Under the pieces are notes generated by a model. It ran no database searches. It saw only the letters and a list, made by a program, of their open reading frames with translations, and was not told the origin of the DNA. A stretch of 64,000 nucleotides of DNA from an archaeon (GTDB taxonomy: Archaea; Nanobdellota; Nanobdellia; SCGC-AAA011-G17; GW2011-AR17): positions 20,833-84,832 of the forward strand of contig JAZDPJ010000002.1 in the NCBI GenBank assembly GCA_043797705.1, in the 5' to 3' direction. This document shows, in pieces, positions 6,134-53,755 of this stretch; position 1 is the first letter of the stretch, and every line of letters starts with the position of its first letter. Position numbers and translations under genes: made by a program.

Positions 6134-6170
6134 GAAAATAAAGGAACGATACCCTCAAAGCACCGTCCCG

Positions 6171-7091
6171 TCACCTCTTATCCCCAGAATCTCCAAGGAA
6201 AAATGATTTCTTAACCTGCCTCACAAAATCAGCAGGCCACAACACACCCAACTCCGAAACAATAGCAGTAATATGCTTCTTATCAACAATATCAAAAGCA
6301 GGATTCAAAACCTTAACCTTCGCAGGAGCATTCTTCCAAACCTCATCAGGACTACGCTGCTCAATCTCCTCCGCCTTATGAACAGTATCTGGATCAAACT
6401 TCCACGAATGAGCACAAACATAAACAGGAACATTCCTAGAAGCAGCAACCCTAGCAAACATGCCACTACCAATCTTGTTAACCACAGAACCATCAGCAGT
6501 AATAGCATCAGCACCGATAAACATAGCACTGCAATTCGAAAGAGCAACAGAAGCAGCAGAATCCACAACATAAGTCACCGGAATGTTAGCTTTACTTAGT
6601 TCAATAGCAGTTCTTCTGCCTTGGAACAAAGGCCTTGTCTCAGTATTGTAAACCCCAAACTTCTTGACACCATAAGCCTTCTTGAAAATATTCATAACAG
6701 TAGAAGCATGACAATGAGTAAACACATTAGTATTATCCCGCATCAACCCAATAGCAAAACCCTCCAGCTTCTCAGAATCAACCTTGTTATCATCAGCAAT
6801 CTTCTTAGCAGTCTCTCTAACAATCCTCTTTAAATCCTGAACCTTCTCCAAGTTAGACTCACGAACACGCTCAAGAGTAAAATTAATGAAATTACGCATC
6901 ATAGGCTCAGTAGCCCTAGTTGCGAAAAGTTCAGACTTCGCAGACCCCAACTGCTTAATAAAAACCTCCTTATTAGAAACATCAATTTTAGATGAGAAAG
7001 AAGCAAAAGCCCCCAAAGCCGCAAAAGCAACATTCTCAGCCCCCTGAATCTTGAGCTCCTTAATTCTTTTGCACACCTCTTTAAACTTCAT
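6171..7091 (-). CDS. Ribose-1,5-bisphosphate isomerase (eIF-2B alpha/beta/delta family, e2b2)
   Basis: IKELKIQGAENVAFAALGAF at the N-terminus and ...FIGADAITADGSVVNKIGSGMFA... are typical of the eIF2B/R15P isomerase family. Start set at the internal Met (MKFKEV...); the ORF track begins at 7136. Confidence 0.75.
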   Translation of the reverse strand: MKFKEVCKRIKELKIQGAENVAFAALGAFASFSSKIDVSNKEVFIKQLGSAKSELFATRATEPMMRNFINFTLERVRESNLEKVQDLKRIVRETAKKIADDNKVDSEKLEGFAIGLMRDNTNVFTHCHASTVMNIFKKAYGVKKFGVYNTETRPLFQGRRTAIELSKANIPVTYVVDSAASVALSNCSAMFIGADAITADGSVVNKIGSGMFARVAASRNVPVYVCAHSWKFDPDTVHKAEEIEQRSPDEVWKNAPAKVKVLNPAFDIVDKKHITAIVSELGVLWPADFVRQVKKSFFLGDSGDKR

Positions 7092-21699: not shown

Positions 21700-22299
21700 T
21701 CAGCAGCTTGTGGAGAGTGTGAGGCCGTCCGGTATTTCTGCTTTACTTTTGAAGCACAGCAGGTTCTCTGGTTTTATCTTCTTCGCATATTTGCAGTCGG
21801 GCTTGTAGTAGACTTTGGAGTTTTTGCTTGCTACGTATGCGCATCCTTCTTTCGGATCTTCGCAGGACCATACTCCGAGGTTCTGGCTCTTGGCTATTGC
21901 TTCTGCTTCTTTCAGTTGGTCGTATCTTTTGGTGTCGTCCTTGTATTTGTCGTACACTTTTGCGTAGCCTTCTTTGACTATCTCCTCGTTTATCATCATG
22001 TCGTCTAGGTAGAGGTATCTGAGGTATCTTCCGTACGCTCCTTTGTCTGACTTGTCTCTTTCTGTGTATACTTCCTTGTTTAGTATGAGCTCTTTCAGTC
22101 GGTCTTTGGCTTCTTGGTAGTAGCATTCTCCTGTCTCAGGCGTGTTTATTCCGCTGAATCTTATTCTTTGTCCGTTGTCCAGGTCTAGTGTGTCTCCGTC
22201 TACTACTTTGGTTACTATGTATGGTCCTTCTTTTGTTATGTTACCTGTTGTGCATCCGCTGATTAAAACTATCAACAATAGGAATAGTAGTTTGTTCAT
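21700..22299 (-). CDS. Thermonuclease (staphylococcal-nuclease-like, SNc) lipoprotein
   Basis: Lipobox LISGCTTG, then VVDGDTLDLDNGQRIRFSGINTPE...YGRYLRYLYLD, typical of the SNase fold. Confidence 0.8.
   Translation of the reverse strand: MNKLLFLLLIVLISGCTTGNITKEGPYIVTKVVDGDTLDLDNGQRIRFSGINTPETGECYYQEAKDRLKELILNKEVYTERDKSDKGAYGRYLRYLYLDDMMINEEIVKEGYAKVYDKYKDDTKRYDQLKEAEAIAKSQNLGVWSCEDPKEGCAYVASKNSKVYYKPDCKYAKKIKPENLLCFKSKAEIPDGLTLSTSC
22131..22299. repeat. Direct repeat copy A (5' end of the nuclease gene); partner at 27075-27249
   Basis: About 60 bp are nearly identical (gtttattccgctgaatcttattctttg.ccgttgtccaggtct..tgtgtctccgtcta), followed by ~100 bp that have diverged but still align. Confidence 0.7.
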
Positions 22300-22405
22300 G
22301 TCTTTTGTTTTAGAAATTTGTTCTATATAACTTTAACTTAGTTTTTTTCGGAAGGTTTGCGGTATAGTGAACAATAATCTAAGAAAAATAGTTGGCACAT
22401 AATTC

Positions 22406-23239
22406 TTATCTTACTTTTATTAATTCATTAAGGTTTTCATCAATTTTTTCACAGTCTTTATTTGTTAGTTGGAAATCTGTTGCTTCGTAGTTTTCTCTTA
22501 GGTGATTTACTGATTTAAAGATTGTTACTATATTTTTCTTTGATATTAACCAATTAAGTGTTATTTGTGCTTCTGTTTTTCCGTATTTTTTAGATAGTTT
22601 TGCTAGTATTTTTATTTTTTCTGTGTTTATTTTTCCTCGTCCGAAAGGTTTATGGGCTATAATAAGTATATCGTTGTTTTGGCAGTATTCAATTGTTGAG
22701 AATCTTACACGTTCTGACCAGGGGGAGTAATTTATCTCATTAGCTACTATTTTATTTTTTGTATATTTTTGTGCTTCTTTTATTTGTTCAATATTGAAGT
22801 TACTTACACCTATATTTTTTACTAGTCCTTGTTCTATTAAGAAGTCCATTGATGCCATTGTTTCTTTAAGGGGTATTTCTGGATTGTAATGGTGTATGAG
22901 GTAAAGATCAATATATCCTATCTTTAATCTTTTAAGACTATTTTTGGCTGAGTTAATTACATCTTCGTATTTTAGATTTTTCCCATGTACTTTGGTTGTT
23001 ATTATTAGTTTTGTTCTATCAAATTCTTTGATAGCTTTTCCTAAGAGTTCTTCTGAGTGTCCTCTGCCATATCTTTCTGCTGTATCTATATGTCTAAATC
23101 CTACTTTGATGGCTTTTTTAATTGCACTTATATTTTCTTTATCATGAGCATAATCTGGCTCTCTATTGCCACCCAATCCGTAAGTTCCTATCCCTATTGC
23201 TGGTAGTTTAAAGCCATTTTGGAGTTCTTTGGTTCTCAT
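22406..23239 (-). CDS. Aldo-keto reductase family oxidoreductase
   Basis: LPAIGIGTYGLGG...IDTAERYGRG...IGVSNF are AKR signature blocks. Confidence 0.85.
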   Translation of the reverse strand: MRTKELQNGFKLPAIGIGTYGLGGNREPDYAHDKENISAIKKAIKVGFRHIDTAERYGRGHSEELLGKAIKEFDRTKLIITTKVHGKNLKYEDVINSAKNSLKRLKIGYIDLYLIHHYNPEIPLKETMASMDFLIEQGLVKNIGVSNFNIEQIKEAQKYTKNKIVANEINYSPWSERVRFSTIEYCQNNDILIIAHKPFGRGKINTEKIKILAKLSKKYGKTEAQITLNWLISKKNIVTIFKSVNHLRENYEATDFQLTNKDCEKIDENLNELIKVR

Positions 23240-23371
23240 AGTTTTTAGTTTGTTTGTAATTATATAACTTTTTTGGAGTTGTAAGCGCTTTTTTATCGAA
23301 AAGTTTATAAGCGAGAACTATCGCAAAGTAGTAACAGTTTCTAGCTTTTGAAGCTAGAAGGGAGATAAAAA

Positions 23372-23563
23372 ATGAAACAAATATACCCAAAAAATTCAGA
23401 TAGAAGTTTAGAACCAGTAATTTCCAAGGAAGAACTAAAAGAAGGTCTTAGTAAAAAGGTCAGCAAACTAATAGAGAACGCTACTGAAAAAGTAGGTCTA
23501 GAGTCCAATAGCAAAAACAGACCATATGATTTGAGTTCAGCAGGACCTTATCCGGACTACTAA
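23372..23563 (+). CDS. Small peptide ORF immediately upstream of the rSAM/SPASM gene (candidate precursor peptide)
   Basis: 63 aa with no Cys, ending ...DLSSAGPYPDY. Its stop is 1 nt before the rSAM start. Confidence 0.35.
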   Translation: MKQIYPKNSDRSLEPVISKEELKEGLSKKVSKLIENATEKVGLESNSKNRPYDLSSAGPYPDY

Positions 23564-23564
23564 A

Positions 23565-24614
23565 TTGAATCCGAGAATTGTTTCTGTAATAGCAAAGGTT
23601 ACTGAGAGGTGTAATCTGAACTGCAAGTATTGCCATCTCGATAAAATTAAGTGTAAGGATATGTCAAAAGAAACCCTAAAATCCATACTTGATAATTTTT
23701 CAAGCAAAGATGGTGAATATGTACATTTCAATTGGAGTGGGGGTGAGCCATTGCTCCAAGGAGATCTTTTTTTTGAAGAGGTAAATAGGCTTGTTACTGA
23801 AAAAGGAGCGAATGTTGATTATTCTATCCAAACCAATGGTGTGCTTTTAACAGATGAGAAATTAGAGAAATTAAGAAAGCTAAACTTCAATGTCGGAGTC
23901 AGTTTTGATGGCACCGTAGGTCTGCATGTAAAACAAAGAAGGGTTCCAGAAAAGGTTGCAAAGAGAATTTATGAAACTCTTAAACAAAGGGGCAGGGATA
24001 TGAATAATATAATCTCGGTTTTAACCAGACATGGTCTTGGGATGGAAAAAGAGATATACGATAACCTCAAAGGGTTAGCAAAAAATGCCTCTGTGAATGT
24101 ATATATCCCTACAGGTAATGGCCGTAAGAATTCTTCTGAATTATTGGCTTCTCCAAAAGAAATGGGTAATATGCTTATAAAATTTTATGATTTATGGAGT
24201 CAGGATGAAAGTAATTTTATGTTAAGTCCTTTTACTCGTATTCTCCAGTCTCTAGTTAATCCTAAAGGGAACCATATATGCGAGTATTCTGCAGAGGCAT
24301 GCAATCAAGTTGTAGGGTTGGATCCTGAAGGGAATGTATATTTTTGTGCAAGGGCAACATCTGATCCTAATTTTTATATGGGTAGTTTAAAGACTCAGAG
24401 CTTGGATGAGATATTATCTAATCCCATACGTGAAAAGGTTTATGAGAGGCGTGAGGAGTTGAGAAAAGAATGTAACTGCGAATATTTTGATATTTGTAAT
24501 GGCGGTTGTCCTCAGGAGGCTGCTGTTAATGGAGATTTTTTTAGTAAGACCTACTATTGCGAGTCTAGAAAAATGCTCTTTGATTATATGGTGGGGTCTC
24601 TCAAAAATGAGTAG
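23565..24614 (+). CDS. Radical SAM enzyme with C-terminal SPASM domain (peptide/protein-modifying maturase family)
   Basis: CNLNCKYC matches CxxxCxxC at the N-terminus. The C-terminal Cys-rich SPASM-like region reads C..C...C...CNCEYFDICNGGC...YC. Confidence 0.8.
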   Translation: MNPRIVSVIAKVTERCNLNCKYCHLDKIKCKDMSKETLKSILDNFSSKDGEYVHFNWSGGEPLLQGDLFFEEVNRLVTEKGANVDYSIQTNGVLLTDEKLEKLRKLNFNVGVSFDGTVGLHVKQRRVPEKVAKRIYETLKQRGRDMNNIISVLTRHGLGMEKEIYDNLKGLAKNASVNVYIPTGNGRKNSSELLASPKEMGNMLIKFYDLWSQDESNFMLSPFTRILQSLVNPKGNHICEYSAEACNQVVGLDPEGNVYFCARATSDPNFYMGSLKTQSLDEILSNPIREKVYERREELRKECNCEYFDICNGGCPQEAAVNGDFFSKTYYCESRKMLFDYMVGSLKNE

Positions 24615-25455
24615 AATAGATGATTTAATTGATAGAGAGTCTCTTGAATTTGTTGCAGCTTCAAAAATTTCTTATAATGACTGTTATGTTTTAATGCAAT
24701 CTGGAGAACCAAGGTATTTTTTGAAAAAAACTGGGGAAGCTGAAAAGGAAGCTACTGTATACGAAGTTTTCAAGAAAGCTAAGCTTGGAGAAACTTTAAA
24801 ACTTGTTGATCACGGTACTGATTTTATCTTAACAGAATACTATCCAAACCTTACGGAATACAGCACTGTTTTTGGTACAATCTATGAAATAGCAAGATTT
24901 CATAACGCTGGAATAGAAAATGCAAATTATATAAAAGCAAAGTTGAAAGATTCAAAATTTTTAAATCTTGATAGAACAAGGGCTATTGCCAGAATCAATA
25001 AGCATCCAGAATTGGTTAGAAAATTTTATTCCAACTCAGAGTCTTTAATTAAGTGGATTGAAAAAAATCAAGACCTACCTAAAAATCAAACAAAAATCCT
25101 AGTTCACGGAGATTTTAATGAACATAACCTTGTGAGATCTTCAGATAAAGATTTTATCTTTTTAGATTTTGAATCAGCTATGTATGATTATCCTTCTTGG
25201 GATATTTGCAGACCAATGCTGAATACAGATAGTTTTGAAACTGCAGAAGATCTAGCAAAAGAATATTTAAAGGGCAGAGGCATAAAATCAAACTTAACAG
25301 AAGATTTAGTTAAAATAAAAGTTGATTGTGTACTTAAGTATGTAAGCCTCGGACTTACAGTACTACTGAGAGATACACCTCAGATAAGGGCAAGGAGAGA
25401 TTGGTACCTATCAAAAACAAGTAACTTTATTGGGAGGATAATAGATGAGATTTGA
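24607..25455 (+). CDS. Aminoglycoside/choline-kinase-like phosphotransferase (APH family)
   Basis: Brenner motif LVHGDFNEHNL plus a DFE Mg site. Start taken at the Met overlapping the rSAM stop by 8 nt. Confidence 0.65.
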   Translation: MSRIDDLIDRESLEFVAASKISYNDCYVLMQSGEPRYFLKKTGEAEKEATVYEVFKKAKLGETLKLVDHGTDFILTEYYPNLTEYSTVFGTIYEIARFHNAGIENANYIKAKLKDSKFLNLDRTRAIARINKHPELVRKFYSNSESLIKWIEKNQDLPKNQTKILVHGDFNEHNLVRSSDKDFIFLDFESAMYDYPSWDICRPMLNTDSFETAEDLAKEYLKGRGIKSNLTEDLVKIKVDCVLKYVSLGLTVLLRDTPQIRARRDWYLSKTSNFIGRIIDEI

Positions 25456-26176
25456 AATGTCTAAAATTAAGAATTTTGTATTTTTCTTGTATATCGCTAA
25501 TAAGGACCATAAGGGTTTGAAAGCATGGGAAGAAGCTAGACATATACTTGGAGATTTTTATCTAGATAATTGTAATGTTAAGGTGCTTCCTTATTTGATG
25601 ACTCTTTCAGATGAAGTTCTTGAGTCTGTTTTAGTAGATGACCCTGCTTTGAAGGAGCATTATGATCGCTCTTTTGCTAGGTTTAGTGAGTATTTTGATA
25701 AGAACGTTAGGCTTCTTGAAAAACGTAAGGGGGAACTTAAGAAAGCGTGGTCTAATTTTGATAAGAGCAAACTTGAGGTTATGTACGATTTTTATGGTTC
25801 TGAGAAGAAAGAGCCTAAAGTGGTTTACTTGTTTGCTGGAAACTTTCATGATCAAGGTCTTGGTTACCATTACCATGGACACGCTTTTTTGTTTTGTTCC
25901 AATCTTGGAAAAGAGGGTGTGACTCGGGATTTAAGGATACTTATGCACGAATTCTGCCATCTTATAGAACATAATTTAGGTGTGGAAGATAAAAATCTCA
26001 AGCAGAATATAGCTTTCTGTTTTGCGCCTTACGGGTATTTGTTTGAGGATTTGGAGAAGATACAGAATAAGGAATTATACTTGGTTGTGAAAAAAGCTAT
26101 TCAAAATAGGAAGACTTTCAAAGATATTGAATCAGAGATTGTAAAGATTTACTCTAAGAAGGATGGAACTTATTAA
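25445..26176 (+). CDS. HExxH-motif protein (putative zinc metallopeptidase)
   Basis: RILMHEFCHLIEH. Overlaps the kinase gene by 11 nt. Confidence 0.45.
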   Translation: MRFEMSKIKNFVFFLYIANKDHKGLKAWEEARHILGDFYLDNCNVKVLPYLMTLSDEVLESVLVDDPALKEHYDRSFARFSEYFDKNVRLLEKRKGELKKAWSNFDKSKLEVMYDFYGSEKKEPKVVYLFAGNFHDQGLGYHYHGHAFLFCSNLGKEGVTRDLRILMHEFCHLIEHNLGVEDKNLKQNIAFCFAPYGYLFEDLEKIQNKELYLVVKKAIQNRKTFKDIESEIVKIYSKKDGTY

Positions 26177-26248
26177 TTTAAAAAAAATTTATCTAAATTG
26201 GGTAGAAATTGCATTAGAATCCGGAAAAGATGCTGCTAACCATCAGGT

Positions 26249-26995
26249 ATGAAAATGGAACTAAAGGTAATGACCAATAATATCTGGAGATATTATGAAT
26301 GGGAAAACCGAAAAGAGAAACTAATTAAATTTTTTAAAGAACAAGCTGCTGATGTAGTTTTCTTACAAGAAGTAGTTTTTGATGAAAGAAAGAAGTGGGA
26401 AAATCAAGTTCATGAAATTAACGAAGAATTGAATTACAAATATTTTGCTTTTGGAAAGTTAACTCAATTAACTAATTGGCATAAAGAACCTATTGATTGG
26501 ACTATGTACCTTGGTCTCGGGATACTTTCAAGGCACCCAATAAAACATTCAGGAGTTATTCTCTTACCAATACATAAAGAGCATGGCGATAAAAAGCAAC
26601 TAGGATTTCATCATGTAGTTATTGAGACTCCTGAAGGAGATGTTGATTTAATCAATGTTCACTTTTCTAATAATAACATATCCGCTAAGTTACATTTGAA
26701 AGAAACTTTGAAATGGTGTAAAGAAAAAGGGATTAAACCAATAATTGCAGGAGATTTTAACATAAAAATTGTTAAAGATTTGTTAGGTGAAGCTCAAGAA
26801 GATTATCATATTTCATACTCAATTAAGCATTACAAATCATTCTATCCAACAAAATTTTCTCATGACTCAGTACCAATAACTCTAGACTATATAATTGCAC
26901 ATAAAGGTAAGTTTGAAATGGCCGAAGTGGAATGTATAGATACTGATGTTTCAGACCATAAACCTGTAAAAGCAAATATTGAAATAAAGGAATAA
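26249..26995 (+). CDS. Endonuclease/exonuclease/phosphatase (EEP) family protein
   Basis: Conserved N-terminal Asn/Glu region (MTNNIW...FLQE), internal GDFN, and C-terminal SDHKPV motif. Confidence 0.7.
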   Translation: MKMELKVMTNNIWRYYEWENRKEKLIKFFKEQAADVVFLQEVVFDERKKWENQVHEINEELNYKYFAFGKLTQLTNWHKEPIDWTMYLGLGILSRHPIKHSGVILLPIHKEHGDKKQLGFHHVVIETPEGDVDLINVHFSNNNISAKLHLKETLKWCKEKGIKPIIAGDFNIKIVKDLLGEAQEDYHISYSIKHYKSFYPTKFSHDSVPITLDYIIAHKGKFEMAEVECIDTDVSDHKPVKANIEIKE

Positions 26996-27074
26996 CTCTT
27001 TCCAAAATCTTATAGATAAAACCTGAGGTCTTGGGTTTTAATGGTTACAAAAATCGAGTAGTTCTTTACTTAAC

Positions 27075-27248
27075 TTAGACTATGTTGTTGTTTATTCCGC
27101 TGAATCTTATTCTTTGCCCGTTGTCCAGGTCTGCTGTGTCTCCGTCTATCACATAAGTTACGAGGTATGGCCCTTCCTTAGTGACATTACCTGTTGTGCA
27201 TCCGCTGAGGGATAGTACAAGCAATATTAGTGCTATTATTTTTTTCAT
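27075..27248 (-). pseudogene. Truncated duplicate of the thermonuclease 5' end (signal peptide plus first ~35 mature residues, then stop)
   Basis: Encodes MKKIIALILLVLSLSGCTTGNVTKEGPYLVTYVIDGDTADLDNGQRIRFSGINNNIV*. This parallels 21700-22299 up to ...RIRFSGIN, where the homology ends. Confidence 0.6.
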
Positions 27249-27334
27249 AGAAGCTGTTCTAGAATTTGTTTTTTATAAGTTGTACTTAGAAATTTTCGTA
27301 AGTTTTATAAAATACTGGTTTTTACTTTCGAGGT

Positions 27335-29791: not shown

Positions 29792-30124
29792 TTATTTTTT
29801 TTTCTTCGTAATGACGCCCATTTCTCCTTGTCTGTATCTCAGGCCCATTCTTAATAGGTAGGTTCCGCTGATTATCATTCCGAGTATTGAGGCTATGTAT
29901 TCTATTAGGAAGGTTCCGAGTAGGAATGTTATGGCTAATAAGGATATGCTTGGTATTAGTCCTTTTGTTTTGTTGATAAACAGTAATACTATGTTTGCTA
30001 TTACAAGCAGTATGATCAGATATCTAATGAAACTGGAGGCTGTGATGAATACTAGGATTAAGAATGATAGGAATATTGCTCCGATGATTCCTAATTGTAT
30101 TTGTAGTAGTTTTTTTGTTTCCAT
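29792..30124 (-). CDS. Small membrane protein (3 TM)
   Basis: Hydrophobic 110-aa ORF immediately downstream of the Cys-rich protein gene. Confidence 0.35.
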   Translation of the reverse strand: METKKLLQIQLGIIGAIFLSFLILVFITASSFIRYLIILLVIANIVLLFINKTKGLIPSISLLAITFLLGTFLIEYIASILGMIISGTYLLRMGLRYRQGEMGVITKKKK

Positions 30125-30126
30125 TT

Positions 30127-32211
30127 TTATTCATCCTTATCAAAGATTACTTTGCCTGTTGTTTCTATTGCCATTGTTTCTTTTTGGTATTGTACTGGTA
30201 CGGGGCTAGATGTGACTTCTGATTCGCCCATTATGCTTATGAGTGTTTTTGAGTTGAATATTATTTTTAGTAGTGAGTATCTTGGTTTGATTGTTACTCC
30301 TTCTCTCCAGAATTTTGATATTGCTCCAAGTGCGCTGAAGAATTTTCCTGGTCCTCCTTGGTCTGTGTGTACCCAGTGCGGTCCTTGTATGTCTCGTCCT
30401 TCCATTTGGAATGTCATGTAGTTGATGAAATTGTATAGGGAGTCGTAGTCTATTGTTACTGAGATGTCTGGGTTTTCATTTATTTGGTCTGATAATGTGA
30501 ATACTACATCTGGGTTTATTTGCAGGTATTTTAGGATGACTGGTATGTCTTTTTCATTGAGTTCTAGTTTGATGTCTAATGATCCTCCATATTTGTCTGC
30601 TATTCTTTGGACTAGTTCCATTTTTCCTTCGTCTGCTTTGATTGCTGCTATTTCGTCTGCACTTGGTCCGAAGGTTCCGTGTTCTTCTATTTCGTAGAGT
30701 ATCAGGTCTTTCATGAGTTCTTGGTCTGGTATCCAAGAGTATTCGTAGAGTGTTGTCCAGTATTTTGCGTTTTGCCATTCAATTGGTATGAATTTTTCCC
30801 AGACTTCTACGCGTGCGTTGTTTTTGTTGTAGGTTATTTCTATTTTTTCAAATCCTTCTGGCCATGTTGGTGTTTCTGAGCAGTATAGTGTTTCTGAGAT
30901 TTTTTCTTCGTTTTTTATTAGGAGTGCTAGTAGTTTTTTGAATCCTTGGTCTCCGTTTACTATTTTTTCTGGGTCGCTTTTTAGGAATTCTTCAAAGTAC
31001 CATATCGCGAATTCGTTATTTATTGATGGTTGTAGTGCTTTTCTTATAGCTACTAGTGATGTTAGGTCTTCTTCGCACCACCTATCACCATGTTGGAAGT
31101 TGTTTAGTTCGTTGTAGTATTCTAGCCCTTGTCCCCAGGAGTTTATGCGTATGTCTTGGTAGTCTTTTCCGCATCTTCCTTCTATTTGTGCTTCTCCGTC
31201 TGTTCTGTTTTCGCATCTTTGTGAGGGTTGGCAGTCTTGATGGCAGTTAGGACGATCTTTGCATACTTCGCTGCATTCTTGGTCCCATCGGCAGTTTTGT
31301 TTTGAGCATTCTTCGTCGCAGACTTGTTCTGTTTGGCATACTCCGGTTGTGCATAATGTTTCATTTGTGGAGGGATCTAGTGTACAGTTTTCTTCGCATA
31401 CTTCTTCTTCACGGCAGTTTACTTGGTTGCATAGGTCTTCGCATATTTCTTTTGGTTGGCAGTCTTGCCAGCAGTTTTGTTGTGTGTCGCATTTTTCTTC
31501 GCATTTTTGGTCGTCCCAGCATTCTTGTTTTATTGTTTCTTTTAGTTTTGCTCTGTATACTGTTTCGAATATTCTTTCTTCATTTTCAGCCCTATCAAGT
31601 ACTTTTTCCATGAATTCTTCGCATTTTTCTTTGTTTTGCATTTTGTTGACTTGCATTTTTAGTTCTGAGAATCTTTCTTGTAGTGCTTCCCATTCTTCTA
31701 TTGTGGGTTTTTCTTCGAATGATACTGCTTTTAGGTCTTCTATGAACTTAGCAAGTTCTGTTTCTAGGTCTGTTGTTATTGCTATCCCTTTTAGTGGTGC
31801 TATTTCATAGTCTATTTGGTAATATGCTTGTGCTTCGTATTCTCTTTTTTCATAGTATTCTCTGTCGCTTCTGTAGAAGTGCTGTGCGTTGAATAATATT
31901 GTGAAGTCTTTTGTTAGGAATTTTTTTTCATAGCGGTTGCTCCAGTCTTGGTTTTGGTCGTCTTGTGGGGATTTTGTGAATATTGTTTCTATCTCTGATT
32001 CTGTGAATGCTTTTTGGCCTTTTTGCTCCAGTTCTTCGTACATTTTGTTTTTTGTGTATTCAATGTAGACTACCAATTTGGCTGCGTCTAGTTCGCCGTT
32101 GTCGTATTGTGTTGCATATGTCTGCACTTGGTCCATGTGTTCTTGCAGTGTTGCGGAGCATAGGGGGGTTAGTAGTAATAGTGTTGCTAGAATTATTATT
32201 CCTCTTTTCAT
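30127..32211 (-). CDS. Secreted cysteine-rich repeat protein (694 aa), function unknown
   Basis: Signal peptide MKRGIIILATLLLLTPLCSAT. The central region is densely packed with Cys in CxxxC/CxxC-type spacing (CEEKCDTQQNCWQDCQPKEICEDLCNQVNC...). Confidence 0.5.
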   Translation of the reverse strand: MKRGIIILATLLLLTPLCSATLQEHMDQVQTYATQYDNGELDAAKLVVYIEYTKNKMYEELEQKGQKAFTESEIETIFTKSPQDDQNQDWSNRYEKKFLTKDFTILFNAQHFYRSDREYYEKREYEAQAYYQIDYEIAPLKGIAITTDLETELAKFIEDLKAVSFEEKPTIEEWEALQERFSELKMQVNKMQNKEKCEEFMEKVLDRAENEERIFETVYRAKLKETIKQECWDDQKCEEKCDTQQNCWQDCQPKEICEDLCNQVNCREEEVCEENCTLDPSTNETLCTTGVCQTEQVCDEECSKQNCRWDQECSEVCKDRPNCHQDCQPSQRCENRTDGEAQIEGRCGKDYQDIRINSWGQGLEYYNELNNFQHGDRWCEEDLTSLVAIRKALQPSINNEFAIWYFEEFLKSDPEKIVNGDQGFKKLLALLIKNEEKISETLYCSETPTWPEGFEKIEITYNKNNARVEVWEKFIPIEWQNAKYWTTLYEYSWIPDQELMKDLILYEIEEHGTFGPSADEIAAIKADEGKMELVQRIADKYGGSLDIKLELNEKDIPVILKYLQINPDVVFTLSDQINENPDISVTIDYDSLYNFINYMTFQMEGRDIQGPHWVHTDQGGPGKFFSALGAISKFWREGVTIKPRYSLLKIIFNSKTLISIMGESEVTSSPVPVQYQKETMAIETTGKVIFDKDE

Positions 32212-32287
32212 ATGGTAATTGGGTTTTTTTGTCTTTATATAATTTTTTATTGCTCAATTTTAAATACCTCTGTGATATTCCGGTTGT

Positions 32288-32974
32288 ATGCTGTCTGATT
32301 TGAAGGAAGATTTGGAAAAGCTTGCTAGTTCTGAGAAGGCTGAGGTTCTTTCTGGTTTTTTCAAGACTGGTAAGGGTCAGTATGCTGAGGGTGATAAGTT
32401 TATTGGGGTTATGGTTCCTTTTCAGAGGAGGATTGCTAAGAAGTACATGGACTTGCCTATGTTTGATTTGCAGGAGTTGATTTCGAGTGACATTCATGAG
32501 CACAGACTGACTGCTGTTTTTATTTTGATTGCGAAGTATGAAAAGACTTGTGATAGGTCTTTCGTTGATTTTTACTTGAAGAATCTGAAGTACATTAATA
32601 ATTGGGACTTGGTTGACCTTTCTGCTCCTAAGATATTGGGCCATTACCTGTTGGAAGACAAGAGGGATATTCTTTATAGGCTAGTTAAATCCAAAAGTTT
32701 GTGGGAGCGTCGTGTTGCTGTTCTTTCAACATTCGCTTTTATTAAGAAAGGGGATTTTGGAGATGCATTGAATATTTCTGAGTTGCTTCTGAAAGATCGG
32801 CATGATCTTATACACAAGGCTGTTGGGTGGATGTTGAGGGAGGTTGGCAAGAGGAATCAGGAAGTTGAGGAGCAGTTTCTAAATAAGTATTACAAGAGGA
32901 TGTCTCGTACTATGTTAAGGTATTCTATTGAGCGTTTTAGTTCTGAAAAGAAGCAGTTTTACATGAAAAAGTAG
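32288..32974 (+). CDS. DNA alkylation repair enzyme family (AlkC/AlkD-like HEAT-repeat glycosylase)
   Basis: Length and the ...WDLVDLSAPKILG...LWERRVAVLS...HKAVGWMLREVGKR blocks resemble the DNA_alkylation family. Confidence 0.6.
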   Translation: MLSDLKEDLEKLASSEKAEVLSGFFKTGKGQYAEGDKFIGVMVPFQRRIAKKYMDLPMFDLQELISSDIHEHRLTAVFILIAKYEKTCDRSFVDFYLKNLKYINNWDLVDLSAPKILGHYLLEDKRDILYRLVKSKSLWERRVAVLSTFAFIKKGDFGDALNISELLLKDRHDLIHKAVGWMLREVGKRNQEVEEQFLNKYYKRMSRTMLRYSIERFSSEKKQFYMKK

Positions 32975-33020
32975 TTTTTGTAATCATTTTATCTTTTGAT
33001 TTACTTCACGGTTAGTGAGG

Positions 33021-33911
33021 TTATCTTAGTTTTTCGAGTAGTTTAAGAGATTCTTTATCAAATTTGGAGAATGCAAACCATTTCTTGCCCAAATCTTTCA
33101 ATGAGGCTCCGAAATGGTATGCCTCTTTATCATCAACTATTAGAAATCTGTCGTGGGAATTTTTGAATTCCTTAATGACAATTGGAGAATACTGCGAGTT
33201 ATATTTTTTTAAATCAAGGGATAATTGCTTTGAAATTTCTTTGGTAAAAATTGTAACAGTAACATTCTTCTTTCTTTTGTTAAAAAGAATCAAAATAGAG
33301 TCATCTACATAGTTATCCACTAAAACAATTGATTTCTCGGCGTTTCTTATGATATCTGAAACAAAGTTATAGGCGTCAAACACTTGTCCGTCAAAAAATA
33401 TGCCTTTCTTAGGTTTAATATCTCTGCTTTCAAGTGCATCAAAAAGCTGATCAAATCGTTTGTTAGTCTTAATTTCATAGTTTAACTGCTTTTTCTCAAC
33501 ATAGTATAGCTTTTGAAATATCTGAGCATTTGATGCAATGAACCTCCTCATAGCAACGAATGCATCTATTATTTTTATACTTATTTCAACAGCAGTATCA
33601 CTTTTTAGAGTGCCTGAAAGCATAGCAACACCTTGTTCTGTAAAGGCTAAAGGCCTTTTTCTCAAGCCCATTTTGATGGAATTGGATATCACAAATTGTG
33701 ATTTCCAATTTTCAAATTCTTCTTTGTCTAATTTAAACATAAACTTGTCTGGGAAACGATTAATATTTCTCCTAACTGCTTGATTTAAAACTCTTGTTTC
33801 TACTTGATAAAGGGCGGCTAAATCACTATCTATCATTACCTGTAGTCCCCGGATAGTGTAAATCTTATTTTTTATCTGGTTTTCATTTAGGACAGTTAAT
33901 TCATTAGTCAT
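33021..33911 (-). CDS. ORF6N-domain (KilA-N/Bro-N-like) protein with a degenerate PLD/HKD-like C-terminal region
   Basis: N-terminal IRGLQVMIDSDLAALYQVETRVLNQAVRRNINRF... matches the ORF6N domain. C-terminal HDRFLIVDD...GASL resembles an HxK(x)4D...GSxN motif. Confidence 0.55.
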   Translation of the reverse strand: MTNELTVLNENQIKNKIYTIRGLQVMIDSDLAALYQVETRVLNQAVRRNINRFPDKFMFKLDKEEFENWKSQFVISNSIKMGLRKRPLAFTEQGVAMLSGTLKSDTAVEISIKIIDAFVAMRRFIASNAQIFQKLYYVEKKQLNYEIKTNKRFDQLFDALESRDIKPKKGIFFDGQVFDAYNFVSDIIRNAEKSIVLVDNYVDDSILILFNKRKKNVTVTIFTKEISKQLSLDLKKYNSQYSPIVIKEFKNSHDRFLIVDDKEAYHFGASLKDLGKKWFAFSKFDKESLKLLEKLR

Positions 33912-33990
33912 GGCATTCAGTCTATTTCTTTGATTTTATAACTTCTTGCAAGAAAATTCCGAAAAATTTACGGAGAACCTAAAATAGATA

Positions 33991-34109
33991 AGGGTTGCTA
34001 AAGAAGCAGTTTTACATGAGAAGCATTGTCGGGTTATGCCTCGTACCATGTTGCGTTATTTGATTGAGAAGTTCAGCTCTGGAAGGAGGAAGTTCTATAG
34101 GGGTGGTTA
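33991..34109 (+). pseudogene. Displaced duplicate of the 3' end of the alkD-like gene
   Basis: Translates KEAVLHEKHCRVMPRTMLRYLIEKFSSGRRKFYRGG*, which matches MSRTMLRYSIERFSSEKKQFYMKK* of 32288-32974. The first 23 nt are identical to 32948-32971. Confidence 0.55.
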
Positions 34110-34112
34110 GCT

Positions 34113-35813
34113 TCACATGGATATTGAGCCTTGTCTGAAGTTTGTTTTGCCTATTATTGCGTTAATTATGTAGGGGGTTCCTTTTTTTGCTTTTGCTTTT
34201 GCTGTTTTTACGGTTTTGATGAAGTCTTCAATGGTTTCTACTTTTTTTCCGTCGCCGCCATATGCTTTTGCGATTAAGTGATAATCAGAGTGTTTTAGAT
34301 TGGTTGCGACTTCGTCTTTTAGCGCTTTGATTTGGTCTCTGGCTATTTGGGACCAGCATGCGTCATTTCCTATTACTGAGATGATGGGTGTTTTGTGTCG
34401 TACGAATGTGTCGTATTCTTGGAGGCTGTATGCTGAGGATCCATCGCCGTAGATTATCCATACTTCAGATTCTGGGTGGCAAAGTTTTGCTCCTAGTGCG
34501 AATCCTGCGCCTACTCCGAGTGTGCCGAATACTCCTGGGTCGATCCAGCTTAATGGTCTCCGGGGCTGTAGTATGTAAGAGCCTGTTGCGACAAAGTCTC
34601 CTCCGTCAGCTATGATTATGCTGTTGTCTGAGAGTTGTGAGTTTAGTTCTTTGAAGAGGCTGATGGGATTTATTTTTGTTTTTGTTTTTGTCGCTGACAT
34701 TTTTTTGCTCTGCTTGCTATCGCGTTTTTGCAGGTGTTGTAGCCAGTTAGGATTATTGTTTTGCGCATATGTTGCGAGTTCTTGTAGGAATTGGTTTGGA
34801 TCTGCGAGGATTGCTTTGTTGGGTTTTTTGTTCTTGTAGAGGTCTGGTTTGCTTATGTTTATTGATACATATGTGCTTTTGATGTGTTGTCCGTAATTTA
34901 GTCTGAAGTCGCATGGAACGCCTGCCAGGATTACGAGATCTGCTTCTTTGAGTGCATCTTTTCGTTTGTGTATTAGTTGTAAGGGCTGTGTTGGGCCGAG
35001 TAGCCCTCGTGCCATGCCGGATAGGTATACTGGGATGTTTAGTTTTTCAACTTTTTCTGCAAGTTTTTCAACTGCATTTGTTCTCAGCATTGCTTGACTG
35101 CCGATTAAAAGTAGGGGTCGTTCAGATTTTTTTAGGAGTTTTTGTACATCGTTGATGTCAGCATAGGAATGTTGTTGGTATTCAGCAGTTATTTTGTCTT
35201 CTAGTGTGTATTCTTTGCTTGCAAACATGTTGTTTAGGTGGTGTTCTAGGTATTGCTGCTGGATTTTTCCAATTAGTGTGTTCGTGGAGGAGTTCCCGTA
35301 CCATTCGCGTACAGTATACTCGCCATATAGTAGGTCTATTGGGCATTCGATAAACACTGGGCCTGGTACTCCTGATTGGGAGATTCTGAATGCTTTTTCT
35401 ACTTTTGGGGCAATGTCTTTGTATCTTTTTATTGTAGTTGCCCATTTCACATGAGGGTTCATAAGCTTCATCTGGTTGATGTCTTGTAGTGAGCCGCGTC
35501 CTTTCAGGACAGTTGCTGTTGCTCCTCCGAATAGGATTAATGGGGATTGTGCAAGGTGCGCGTTTTTTACTGCTGTTATTGTGTTCGTTAGGCCTGGTCC
35601 TGCTGTTACTGCTGCTACGCCTGGTGTTCCAGAAAGCCTTGATACTGCGTCTGCTGCAAAGACTGCATTTGCTTCATGTCTTACATCGATGACTCGTATG
35701 CCTTCTTGTTTTGCTCCGACCAGAATTGGGGATATGTGCCCTCCGCATAGTGTGAATAGGTATTTTACGCCTTGTTTTTTTAGGATTTTTGATATAAGTT
35801 GTCCGCCGTGCAT
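34113..35813 (-). CDS. Thiamine-pyrophosphate enzyme, acetolactate-synthase-large-subunit-like
   Basis: 566 aa with three-domain TPP enzyme layout. The N-terminal pyrimidine-binding domain reads [17 protein letters not shown]... Confidence 0.7.
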
Positions 35814-36096
35814 TTTAAGGGAGTGTCCGGGAGGTCTTTTATAAGACTTGTGAAGCTTAATTTAAGGGAGGATAGCATCCTTGATTTTAAGCCTGTTTAC
35901 AGCACTTTACTGAACCGGAAGCTTTATAAGTAACCTCACTTGCTGATTGTATATAAAATTGGAAGGCAGAGACAGAGGGTAAAGATTATGCTCATTCTGT
36001 TTCACGTGAATAACCCTCAACCGATGTTATCATTGGAAAAAACTCCTTAGCAAGAGAAGAGAGTAGCACAGTATGTTCCAAAGGAGATAAAAAAAT

Positions 36097-52711: not shown

Positions 52712-53755
52712 GTGGACGAAGCGCAAAAAGAGGGTTCTAAGCTGGAAAAGATGCTATTTTCAGCAGGTAGGATTACAAAGAAAGGTTTGAGAGCTGGATT
52801 GATATGTAGTGTCCTATTTGGTAATGTCTTTGGGTTATTTAATTTGTATGCAAAATGGGTGTATCAAGTAAAGACTAATTATGGTGTTGTAATTACGCAG
52901 GCTGATGGTGAGAGGGTTGCTATCACAGAGTCAGGATGGCATATGCGGATACCTTTACTTTCAACGTATGAGAATGATAGAGAGCAATATGCTCTGGCGA
53001 ATCAAGTATTATTTTTGGATGGAAAGACTGATATGCATGAGGTTATCGCAAGGGATGAGGTTACTATGGCGGCGGCGGTAACATATTATGAGATAACGGA
53101 TTTGCGTCAATACGCTATAGAGAATGTTAAGGCAGAAATGAGAACATTTGAAGAGACCGAGATGATGCGGGGGGTAACAAAATTTTCTATGACTCCTAGG
53201 GGTATGCTCCAGAAAAAACTTGACTCTATAATAGGCACCAATATCCAAAAAACAGAGCAGGAGGATCTGATTCATAACAGGGGTAAGGTTGAAGATAAGA
53301 TCTTTCAGGATTTACTTGATTCTGATATCTCTAAGAGATTTGGAATAAAATTCAACGGTTTCAATTTTTCTAATACTAGCTATATGCCTGATGTTGTGAA
53401 GGCTAATGCGGAAAAACAAACCTTGCGGGCTATTGCAGAAGGGAAAAATGCTGCGGCAGAGGTGGAGAGGAAAACAATAGAGGTATTGGCGAAAGCTGAT
53501 GCGAATAAGATAGAGATTTTGGCTGAGGCTGATGCTAATAAAATAAAGATATTGGCGAAAGCTGATGCAAATAAATATTATATCCTTGAGAAGGCATTGA
53601 ATCCGCAGACTCCTGAGGAGAAAAAACATGTACAAGACATATTCAGAGCTTTAGTGAAATACAAGACAATTCAAGAAAAAGCTGGTAGTACTGTCTGGGT
53701 AGTTCCAGATTCAGCCAGCCCAATTCCTACATATAACCCCGGATCATTGAAATAA
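52712..53755 (+). CDS. SPFH/band-7 (stomatin/HflK/C/flotillin-like) membrane protein
   Basis: N-terminal TM, SPFH core, and C-terminal repeats ILAKADANKIEILAEADANKIKILAKADANK typical of flotillin/HflC-like tails. Confidence 0.7.
   Translation: MDEAQKEGSKLEKMLFSAGRITKKGLRAGLICSVLFGNVFGLFNLYAKWVYQVKTNYGVVITQADGERVAITESGWHMRIPLLSTYENDREQYALANQVLFLDGKTDMHEVIARDEVTMAAAVTYYEITDLRQYAIENVKAEMRTFEETEMMRGVTKFSMTPRGMLQKKLDSIIGTNIQKTEQEDLIHNRGKVEDKIFQDLLDSDISKRFGIKFNGFNFSNTSYMPDVVKANAEKQTLRAIAEGKNAAAEVERKTIEVLAKADANKIEILAEADANKIKILAKADANKYYILEKALNPQTPEEKKHVQDIFRALVKYKTIQEKAGSTVWVVPDSASPIPTYNPGSLK

What the first reader, a model, noticed from the sequence alone, without database searches (positions are those of the whole stretch)
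32948..34109. ORF6N/PLD-like gene inserted behind the AlkD-like gene, flanked by a duplicated gene 3' end
The last 23 nt of the alkD-like gene (aagaagcagttttacatga.aag) recur at 33991-34013. They are followed by a diverged second copy of the gene's final ~25 codons (…MPRTMLRYLIEKFSSGRRKFY vs …MSRTMLRYSIERFSSEKKQFY).

The ~1 kb between them contains a single minus-strand gene. It encodes an ORF6N (KilA-N/Bro-N-type, phage-associated DNA-binding) domain fused to a degenerate PLD/HKD-like region (HDRFLIVDD…GAS). The layout fits site-specific insertion of a small mobile gene that regenerated the host gene's C-terminus and displaced the original end.

This is the same integration signature as the nuclease island at 22-27 kb.
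Basis: seen in the sequence. Interest (0 to 1): 0.55.

Follow-up and report, generated by a model that had tools for sequence, protein, structure and literature searches.

The report
Defence gene inserted behind alkD
A roughly 1 kb piece of foreign DNA carrying one known candidate anti-virus gene has been spliced in just behind a DNA-repair gene of an uncultivated archaeon; it left the repair gene's old tail and a 20-base repeat as scars, which is a real but fairly ordinary trace of gene transfer.

Summary
A 29-30-codon alkD 3' remnant (34020-34110) follows the second repeat and ends 2 nt from the convergent TPP-enzyme gene.

The gene is a full-length member of PADLOC candidate defence family PDC-S05. 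It has an ORF6N domain, a helical linker and a C-terminal PLD-fold domain with an invariant non-canonical H-x-R...D...G-A-S-x-K motif.

It is low-GC foreign DNA (0.32 against about 0.40). It has no recombinase, and homologous loci share no DNA outside the ORF, so 'site-specific mobile gene' is not supported.

The 20-mer is out of register with the duplicated tails, so a simple att or target-site-duplication model fails. I favour recombination-mediated acquisition from a related genome that already carried the cassette behind alkD.

Two other assemblies are 100% identical from alkD codon 26 through the cassette into TPP but only about 85% identical outside. This shows recent spread by homologous recombination.

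Similar gene-end duplications flank two other islets in this lineage and about 10% of PDC-S05 loci. Verdict: a new member of a known kind, of moderate interest.

The parts
32288..32974 (+). Intact alkD-like DNA glycosylase gene (228 aa); its last 29 codons are the 'new' tail
   Evidence: Pfam DNA_alkylation, E 1e-60, residues 6-217. The ending ...FYMKK* matches the family consensus.
32342..32363 (.). Recombination breakpoint inside alkD relative to assemblies L168/L170: all differences lie at or left of 32362, and identity is 100% from 32363 to at least 35854
   Evidence: The 11 mismatches cluster at 32306-32362, and the flanking ThiI gene is only 83-85% identical.
32947..32966 (+). Direct repeat, copy 1 (AAAGAAGCAGTTTTACATGA), inside alkD codons 220-226
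32975..33020 (.). 46-nt AT-rich spacer between the convergent stops of alkD and the inserted gene (GC 0.28)
33021..33911 (-). Inserted gene, 296 aa, PDC-S05 family: ORF6N domain (residues 15-99), long helices (105-161), PLD-fold domain (about 165-290) with H253-x-R255...D260...H266-x-G268-A-S270-x-K272-D273
33912..33999 (-). 88-nt upstream region of the inserted gene, with a TATA-like TTATAAAA (33934-33941 on the minus strand) 23-30 nt before the ATG
   Evidence: Read directly from the sequence; GC 0.318; not conserved in relatives.
34000..34019 (+). Direct repeat, copy 2, abutting the truncated edge of the alkD remnant
34020..34110 (+). Displaced alkD 3' end (pseudogene fragment, about 30 codons: (E)KHCRVMPRTMLRYLIEKFSSGRRKFYRGG*); its stop lies 2 nt from the TPP stop
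   Evidence: GC 0.456.
34113..35813 (-). Convergent thiamine-pyrophosphate enzyme gene; the right-hand anchor of the locus and part of the segment shared at 100% identity with L168/L170
   Evidence: Pfam TPP_enzyme_N/M/C.

Best explanation
The gene at 33021-33911 is a horizontally acquired single-gene antiviral defence candidate of PADLOC family PDC-S05.

Its likely mode of action is inferred, not shown. The N-terminal ORF6N (KilA-N/Bro-N-type) domain would recognise nucleic acid or a phage factor. The long central helices would dimerise the protein. Two C-terminal single-motif PLD-fold domains would then form one phosphodiesterase or nuclease-like site, as in Nuc and BfiI, that damages invading or host DNA.

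The gene did not insert itself. It entered this archaeal genome by recombination at the 3' end of alkD. The incoming DNA came from a related genome in which the cassette already sat behind an alkD gene and was followed by a short repeat of that gene's end.

One crossover fell in register inside alkD. The other fell out of register, between the donor's right-hand copy of the alkD end (KKQFYM, AAGAAGCAGTTTTACATG) and the similar internal stretch of the resident gene (EEQFL-type, compare GAGGAGCAGTTTCTAAAT in the present gene).

This left an intact alkD, the cassette, the 20-mer, and the resident gene's last 29-30 codons stranded next to the TPP gene.

The whole block now spreads between lineages that are about 15% diverged, by ordinary homologous recombination in the flanking genes.

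Shown: family membership, fold, foreign composition, the remnant, the repeat, the lack of conserved ends, and the recent recombinational transfer. Inferred: the order of events, the donor structure, and the biochemical activity.
For: Identity of the gene:
- PADLOC PDC-S05, E 8e-125 over residues 4-295.
- Pfam ORF6N, 116 bits against a cut-off of 27.8.
- Motif residues invariant in 22 sequences from archaea and bacteria.
- More than 8000 homologues at 60-74% identity across phyla and both domains.
- A PDC-S05 representative cut T7 and T5 plating about 1000-fold (preprint 10.1101/2024.09.26.614923).
- S05 is judged bacterial in origin and acquired by Archaea through HGT (PMC12988326).

Insertion:
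- Cassette GC is 0.316 against about 0.40 for the host.
- The remnant's stop is 2 nt from the TPP stop.
- The only two long-range direct repeats in the 64 kb window both bracket low-GC segments.

Not self-mobile:
- DNA similarity between loci stops inside the ORF.
- Genomic contexts are unrelated.

Recombinational spread:
- L168 and L170 are 100% identical to window 32363-35854. Their 11 mismatches cluster at 32306-32362, and ThiI is 83-85% identical.
- L170 carries a 9-mismatch conversion patch at 33648-33734.

Out-of-register junction:
- Remnant homology begins at 34021, directly after the 20-mer.
- Both tails look like native alkD tails.

Recurrence:
- Gene-end duplications flank the 22-27 kb islet and a TPP+Bro-N islet in L169.
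- They flank 7 of 69 PDC-S05 loci, against 2 of 137 control genes once one control that is itself a second PDC-S05 copy is dropped (Fisher p = 0.007). Examples are L053, L051 and L056.
Against: - No cassette-free relative exists in the collections searched. The best alkD relative is 66% identical and the best TPP relative 70%. The pre-insertion state is therefore inferred.
- The model needs a donor in which the cassette was already flanked by a repeat of the alkD end, which only pushes back the question of how that first repeat arose.
- Composition does not clearly mark the present alkD tail as donor DNA. Its GC3 is 0.50, like the alkD body at 0.45.
- The enrichment of flanking duplications is modest: p = 0.08 against same-locus control ORFs alone.
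- The PDC-S05 protein tested experimentally was described as carrying a RhuM domain and is not this protein.
- The catalytic Lys and Asn of the canonical HKD motif are replaced by Arg and Lys, and no sequence-level hit to any solved PLD enzyme was found.
Confidence: 0.55

Rival explanations
1. This is a site-specific integrative mini-element. A 1053-bp circle with a 20-bp core integrated at the alkD 3' end, supplied a replacement end, and displaced the original end.
For: - An exact 20-bp direct repeat brackets the insert.
- The inferred circle junction would read ...LKKQFYMKK*, an alkD-like end.
- The 22-27 kb islet, L051 and L056 each show an exact block at the truncated edge of a displaced gene end.
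Against: - No integrase or other recombinase lies in or beside the insert.
- The core is out of register with the duplicated tails.
- The implied target would be an alkD already fused out of frame to the old tail.
- Homologous genes have no conserved flanks and no shared target.
- The 20-mer was not found in 2.9 million viral contigs.
Confidence: 0.1
2. The remnant is what is left of a second, tandem alkD paralogue. The defence gene landed between the two copies, and a later deletion between similar short sequences removed most of the second copy.
For: - Both tails look like native alkD ends.
- The alkD internal quasi-repeat offers short homology for such a deletion (and direct reading of the sequence).
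- The remnant is more diverged from all homologues (at most 69% identity) than the live tail appears to be (my by-eye count against the tails listed). This fits a decaying copy.
Against: - None of 80 alkD loci from metagenomes carries a second alkD within 3.5 kb.
- No alkD 5' fragment exists anywhere in the window.
- The model needs three events.
Confidence: 0.12
3. The remnant travelled with the insert. The cassette, or a cassette+TPP islet, was cut out of an earlier host together with the end of that host's alkD, and was then pasted next to this genome's own alkD.
For: - In L169 the TPP gene is itself part of an inserted islet with a Bro-N gene.
- The next TPP relatives are Bacteroidota, so the TPP gene is also foreign.
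- The segment shared at 100% identity with L168/L170 includes the TPP gene.
Against: - The remnant and the TPP gene have host-like GC (0.46 and 0.43), unlike the cassette (0.32).
- Landing next to a second alkD by chance is unlikely unless homology guided it, which merges this model with the best explanation.
- No repeat links the alkD end to the far side of the TPP gene.
Confidence: 0.1
4. The ORF6N-PLD protein mobilises its own gene. It would act as a PLD-type nuclease or transesterase, in the manner of a homing enzyme or recombinase, producing the flanking duplications.
For: - PLD enzymes work through a covalent phospho-histidine intermediate, and BfiI can transfer DNA strands (established knowledge, not tested here).
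- The protein has a DNA-binding N-terminal domain.
- Flanking duplications are enriched at this family's loci.
Against: - The duplications vary from about 16 to about 290 nt and differ in sequence, and no conserved ends exist.
- The same kind of scar flanks islets that lack this gene.
- In Bacteroidota the gene is passive cargo of conjugative-transposon-like elements.
- About 90% of loci show no duplication.
Confidence: 0.03

Closest known systems
PADLOC phage-defence candidate PDC-S05 (single-gene candidates found by 'guilt by embedding'; ORF6N/RhuM-type proteins)
   Same: Full-length match to model PDLC04869 (E 8e-125). It has the same length and architecture as thousands of 'ORF6N domain-containing proteins'. 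Relatives sit beside or within restriction-modification-type genes: hsdM in L051, a DUF1156 gene in L053, an HNH gene in L056.
   Different: Here the gene lies in a DPANN-type archaeal genome between housekeeping-type genes (alkD and a TPP enzyme), not in a defence system. Activity has been reported only for another representative, described as RhuM-type.
Single-HKD PLD-superfamily nucleases (Nuc of pKM101, NucT, Zucchini, the BfiI and SauUSI nuclease domains, DISARM DrmC)
   Different: The motif is H-x-R-x4-D-x5-H-x-G-A-S-x-K, not H-x-K-x4-D-x6-G-S-x-N. There is no sequence-level match to any solved structure. The top fold hits include the catalytically inactive FAM83 and MITD1 domains, so activity is unproven.
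Integrative elements that regenerate the end of their target gene (tRNA-, tmRNA- or dusA-targeting islands)
   Same: There is an intact target gene, a displaced gene end on the far side of the insert, and a short exact repeat at the boundary.
   Different: There is no integrase. The repeat is out of register with the duplicated ends. Neither attachment site nor target is conserved among homologous cassettes.
Insertion-duplication by single-crossover (Campbell-type) or homology-facilitated illegitimate recombination
   Same: There is one complete and one truncated copy of the target segment around foreign DNA. Duplication lengths vary between loci (about 16-360 nt). Mosaic identity patterns occur. 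Frequent homologous recombination is demonstrated in this population.
   Different: A plain single crossover predicts in-register copies, but here the exact block is offset by 26 codons. No circular intermediate or donor has been observed.

Membership tests
PDC-S05 (PADLOC-DB v2) | Full-length match to a PDC-S05 profile HMM | tested here: met
   PDLC04869, E 8.4e-125, protein residues 4-295 on profile positions 8-300 of 306. Three further S05 models match at 1e-35 to 1e-56.
PDC-S05 (PADLOC-DB v2) | Protects cells against virus infection | not testable with these tools
   The only evidence is literature on another representative: about 1000-fold drop in plating for T7 and T5. Nothing is known for this protein or for any archaeal host.
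ORF6N domain (Pfam PF10543, KilA-N/Bro-N-like) | Score above the Pfam gathering threshold | tested here: met
   116.4 bits against a cut-off of 27.8, residues 15-99, profile positions 1-84 of 86. PHROG anti-repressor families also match the N-terminus.
PLD superfamily | PLD fold (beta-alpha-beta sandwich of the HKD domain) | tested here: met
PLD superfamily | Canonical catalytic motif H-x-K-x4-D-x6-G-S-x-N | tested here: not met
   The sequence is H253-D-R255-FLIV-D260-DKEAY-H266-F-G268-A-S270-L-K272. His, Asp, Gly and Ser are kept. Lys is replaced by Arg, Asn by Lys, and the spacer is one residue longer. These positions are invariant or at least 90% conserved in the family, so the site is probably functional, but activity is unproven.
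PLD superfamily | Pfam or PDB sequence-level match to a PLD family | tested here: not met
   No Pfam PLD hit at E < 0.1. The profile search found no PDB hit at E <= 10. The only signal is a weak DrmC hit, E 0.0018.
Site-specific integrative element | Element-encoded integrase or recombinase | tested here: not met
   The 1053 bp between the repeats holds one ORF of at least 100 aa, with no recombinase domain. The neighbours are alkD and a TPP enzyme.
Site-specific integrative element | Conserved attachment site or element ends among related copies | tested here: not met
   blastn similarity between the window and 80 loci is confined to the ORF. The flanks of the closest relatives score at null level.
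Site-specific integrative element | Direct repeat at both boundaries that reconstitutes a plausible empty site | tested here: inconclusive
   The 20-bp repeat is present. However, the reconstituted empty site would be an alkD frameshifted into ...FYMRSIVGLCLVPCCVI* (frames).
Insertion-duplication by homologous or homeologous recombination | One intact and one truncated copy of the target segment flanking foreign DNA | tested here: met
   An intact alkD plus a 29-30-codon 3' remnant at 67% nt identity. The cassette's composition is foreign.
Insertion-duplication by homologous or homeologous recombination | Donor or cassette-free allele, or a circular intermediate, observed | not testable with these tools
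   No relative closer than 66-70% identity lacks the cassette. The only related genomes (L168, L170) already carry it.

The most novel reading that the evidence does not exclude
Small defence genes such as PDC-S05, and other islets in DPANN-type archaea, may become embedded beside or inside resident genes by an integrase-independent insertion-duplication process. In this process the incoming DNA carries a replacement copy of the interrupted gene end, so the neighbour stays intact and the old end is left as a scar. That would be a general route by which 'embedded' defence genes enter operons without breaking them. The supporting cases are three islets in this lineage (alkD, SNase, and the L169 helicase) and about 10% of PDC-S05 loci in unrelated bacteria (next to a DUF1156 gene, hsdM and an HNH gene).
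Probability: 0.15. Interest if true: 0.6.

Novelty: new member of a known kind. Interest (0 to 1): 0.35.

Why it matters
The gene belongs to one of the commoner but uncharacterised single-gene defence candidates. This locus gives an archaeal example with a datable insertion scar. It also gives direct evidence that the cassette moves between roughly 15%-diverged lineages by homologous recombination in flanking genes: 3.5 kb at 100% identity against 85% outside.

The recurring signature of an intact gene plus a displaced gene end, seen around integrase-less islets, would explain how defence genes get embedded next to essential or operonic genes without damage, if it proved general. As a single locus it is a tidy case study, not a surprise.

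Tried and rejected
1. Chance repeat: rejected. Zero matches are expected in shuffles, and only two such long-range repeats exist in the 64 kb window.
2. Assembly artefact: rejected. Four assemblies share the arrangement.
3. Cassette-free relatives. I searched with a metagenome scan using alkD and protein searches with alkD and the TPP enzyme. Nothing closer than 66-70% identity turned up. The 90% clusters hold only the L168/L170 variants.
4. Other alkD fragments in the window that would mark a larger element: none.
5. Conserved element ends: none.
6. Compositional test for a chimeric alkD: ambiguous.
7. In-register exact block at the remnant edge, as in the SNase islet: absent. Only AGCAGTTT is shared in register (reading).
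8. Extending the remnant to the left of the 20-mer in any frame: no alkD-like sequence (frames; most tblastn alignments start at remnant residues 11-12).
9. Phage origin: INPHARED has no full-length match. IMG/VR has only about 15-20 near-full-length relatives among 2.9 million contigs. PLSDB has 7.
10. The 20-mer in viral contigs: none.
11. Sequence-level link to solved PLD structures: none.
12. An rRNA operon as the reason for the conserved 4 kb upstream in Flavobacteriia: rejected. The conserved genes are topoisomerase III and DUF3945/DUF4099 genes.
Full report
WHAT IS THERE

The region holds four features:
- an intact alkD-like gene, 32288-32974 (+), Pfam DNA_alkylation, E 1e-60;
- a 296-aa gene on the minus strand, 33021-33911;
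- a short alkD-like fragment;
- a convergent thiamine-pyrophosphate enzyme gene, 34113-35813 (-).

The 20-mer AAAGAAGCAGTTTTACATGA occurs exactly twice in the 64 kb window, at 32947-32966 and 34000-34019. It is 22/23 identical over 23 nt, and none is expected by chance.

Directly after the second copy, 34020/34021-34110 encodes (E)KHCRVMPRTMLRYLIEKFSSGRRKFYRGG*.
- This matches alkD residues 200-225 at 57.7% identity.
- 34036-34110 matches 32900-32974 at 50/75 nt.
- It matches the C-termini of all 80 alkD relatives fetched.
- Its stop codon is 2 nt from the stop of the TPP gene. This is the tight convergent junction expected if it is the original alkD end, still in place.

The 20-mer is not in register with the duplicated tails.
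- In the intact gene it covers codons 220-226 (EKKQFYM), just before KK*.
- In the second copy it abuts the equivalent of codon 199/200.
- Both tails look like genuine alkD ends. Relatives end ...MPRTMLRYAIEKFxExKRKFYLKK* or ...EFYMKK*, so the AAAAGTAG after the first repeat is native alkD sequence.
- Nothing to the left of the second 20-mer resembles alkD in any frame.
- alkD has an internal quasi-repeat: codons 193-199, GAGGAGCAGTTTCTAAAT (EEQFLN), against codons 220-226, AAGAAGCAGTTTTACATG (KKQFYM). This offers short homology for an out-of-register crossover.

THE INSERTED GENE

Domains and fold:
- Pfam ORF6N at residues 15-99 (E 7e-34).
- PHROG 'anti-repressor' families match the N-terminus only.
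- PADLOC gives a full-length hit to PDC-S05 (PDLC04869, E 8e-125) and a weak hit to the DISARM PLD protein DrmC.
- An AlphaFold model built from a 22-sequence alignment is poor in the N-terminal part. It is confident (pLDDT about 90) for residues about 165-290.
- The motif is H253-x-R255-x4-D260-x5-H266-x-G268-A-S270-x-K272-D273. These residues are invariant or at least 90% conserved across archaeal and bacterial members. The site is therefore non-canonical but clearly under selection, not degenerate.
- No sequence-level match to a solved structure exists.

Distribution:
- The family is very large: more than 8000 hits, with 60-74% identity across Woesearchaeota, Nanoarchaeota, Methanosarcinales, Campylobacterota, Bacteroidota and CPR bacteria.
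- It is essentially cellular. There are 0 full-length matches in 50,697 phage records, 7 in 72,556 plasmids, and about 15-20 in 2.9 million viral contigs.
- In Flavobacteriia it follows topoisomerase III and DUF3945/DUF4099 genes in a block conserved at 77-92% nt identity, consistent with conjugative-transposon-type cargo (my reading).

Literature:
- PDC-S05 is a 'guilt-by-embedding' candidate (10.1101/2024.01.29.577857).
- One representative, described as RhuM-type, reduced T7 and T5 plating about 1000-fold (10.1101/2024.09.26.614923).
- S05 is considered bacterial in origin and acquired by Archaea through HGT, and DPANN genomes are rich in such single-gene candidates (PMC12988326).
- The C-terminal domain is shared with annotated RhuM-family proteins.

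IS IT AN INSERTION, AND HOW DID IT GET THERE

- The cassette and its two spacers have GC 0.28-0.32, against 0.39-0.43 for neighbouring genes.
- The cassette carries a TATA-like box 23-30 nt before its ATG.
- There is no recombinase.
- DNA similarity between this locus and 80 genome loci, or the closest relatives (70-74% aa identity), stops inside the ORF, and their contexts are unrelated.
- A site-specific or self-mobile element is therefore not supported.
- Read as an att core or target-site duplication, the 20-mer would imply an empty site in which alkD runs out of frame into the old tail. It would also require the insert to supply the consensus KK* by chance. I reject that reading as unlikely.

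DIRECT EVIDENCE FOR THE MODE OF SPREAD

Two short contigs from other assemblies (L168 from JGI, L170 from ENA) carry TPP, the cassette and alkD.
- They are 100% identical to window 32363-35854.
- All 11 differences cluster in the first 75 nt of alkD (32306-32362).
- The next gene, ThiI, is only 83-85% identical.
- 2.46 kb present in the window (29792 to about 32255) is absent from them.
- L170 also has a 9-mismatch patch at 33648-33734.

A block containing most of alkD, the cassette, the remnant and the TPP gene was therefore recently exchanged between diverged lineages by homologous recombination, with one crossover inside alkD. Short conversion tracts are common in this population.

RECURRENCE OF THE SCAR

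The only other long-range direct repeat in the window is 22143-22358 against 27089-27306.
- It covers the SNase promoter plus the first 53 codons.
- It is 28 nt exact (44/45) at the truncated edge.
- It brackets a 4.7 kb low-GC, integrase-less islet.

In L169, the nearest TPP relative, TPP plus a Bro-N gene lie between two copies of a helicase promoter and its first ~88 codons.

Among PDC-S05 loci, 7 of 69 have significant flank-to-flank duplications. The comparison set is 2 of 137 control genes, after dropping one control that is itself a second PDC-S05 copy (Fisher p = 0.007; p = 0.08 against same-locus controls alone). Examples:
- the start of a DUF1156 gene (L053);
- the end of hsdM (L051);
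- the 3' part of an HNH gene (L056).

Other loci carry tandem or fragmentary extra copies of the gene.

BEST EXPLANATION AND ITS LIMITS

I favour acquisition by recombination from a related genome that already had the cassette behind alkD, followed by a short repeat of the alkD end. One crossover would be in register inside alkD. The other would be out of register, between that repeat and the EEQFL-type stretch of the resident gene, stranding the resident tail.

This accounts for the intact gene, the offset 20-mer, and the in-situ remnant. It also accounts for the sharp age contrast between a perfect 20-mer and a 67%-identical remnant.

It remains an inference:
- No cassette-free allele was found.
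- Composition is ambiguous about the origin of the live tail.
- The origin of the first repeat in the donor is unexplained.

Rivals are listed with probabilities in the rival-explanations section: a mini integrative element, a decayed tandem paralogue, a remnant imported with the islet, and self-mobilisation by the PLD protein.

VERDICT

The gene is a new archaeal member of a known candidate defence family, and the scar is a well-preserved but not extraordinary product of horizontal transfer. The broader pattern of gene-end-regenerating insertions around integrase-less islets is the part worth following up.

Noticed in passing
window 22143-22358 and 27089-27306 (islet 22359-27088): A 216-nt direct duplication of the SNase gene's promoter and first 53 codons, with 28 nt exact (44/45) at the truncated edge. 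It brackets a 4.7 kb low-GC (0.30-0.36) islet with aldo-keto reductase, radical SAM, kinase-like and EEP genes and no integrase. The intact gene's N-terminal part has GC 0.376, against 0.458 for the rest of the gene.
   Followed up: partly
window 29792-32255 vs L168/L170: The 110-aa and 694-aa (Cys-rich, no Pfam) ORFs between ThiI and alkD are absent in two related assemblies, where the ThiI stop lies 25 nt from the alkD ATG. The window keeps a relic (AATTTTAAATA) resembling the ThiI end just upstream of alkD.
   Followed up: partly
L169:2967-3325 and 6148-6504 (GCA_017973895.1 contig): In the closest TPP relative (70% aa identity), the TPP gene plus a 289-aa Bro-N gene sit between two copies of a DEAD/ResIII helicase promoter and its first ~88 codons. 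The first 190 nt are identical and the rest about 88% identical. This is another gene-end-duplicating insertion.
   Followed up: partly
window 33648-33734 vs L170: Nine mismatches in 87 nt inside the ORF6N domain of an otherwise identical cassette. This is a short gene-conversion tract from another allele.
   Followed up: no
L025-L044 (Flavobacteriia/Sphingobacteriia), about 4 kb upstream of the gene to about 27 nt past its stop: The PDC-S05 gene directly follows DUF4099/DUF3945 and topoisomerase III genes in a block conserved at 77-92% nt identity across genera. In several pairs the homology ends about 25-35 nt after the gene's stop. It looks like cargo lying near one boundary of this conserved, conjugative-transposon-like block.
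   Followed up: partly
L006, L036, L054 (two full copies); L049, L055, L068, L077 (extra fragments): Tandem duplicates and N- or C-terminal fragments of the PDC-S05 gene lie next to full copies, suggesting frequent cassette turnover or recombination between alleles.
   Followed up: no
window 34113-35813: After one archaeal-type contig at 70% identity, the nearest relatives of the TPP enzyme are Bacteroidota (59-63%). This gene is probably also horizontally acquired.
   Followed up: no
window 53455-53574: Three overlapping 54-nt copies at 33-nt spacing (69-78% identity): an 11-codon tandem repeat inside a coding region.
   Followed up: no
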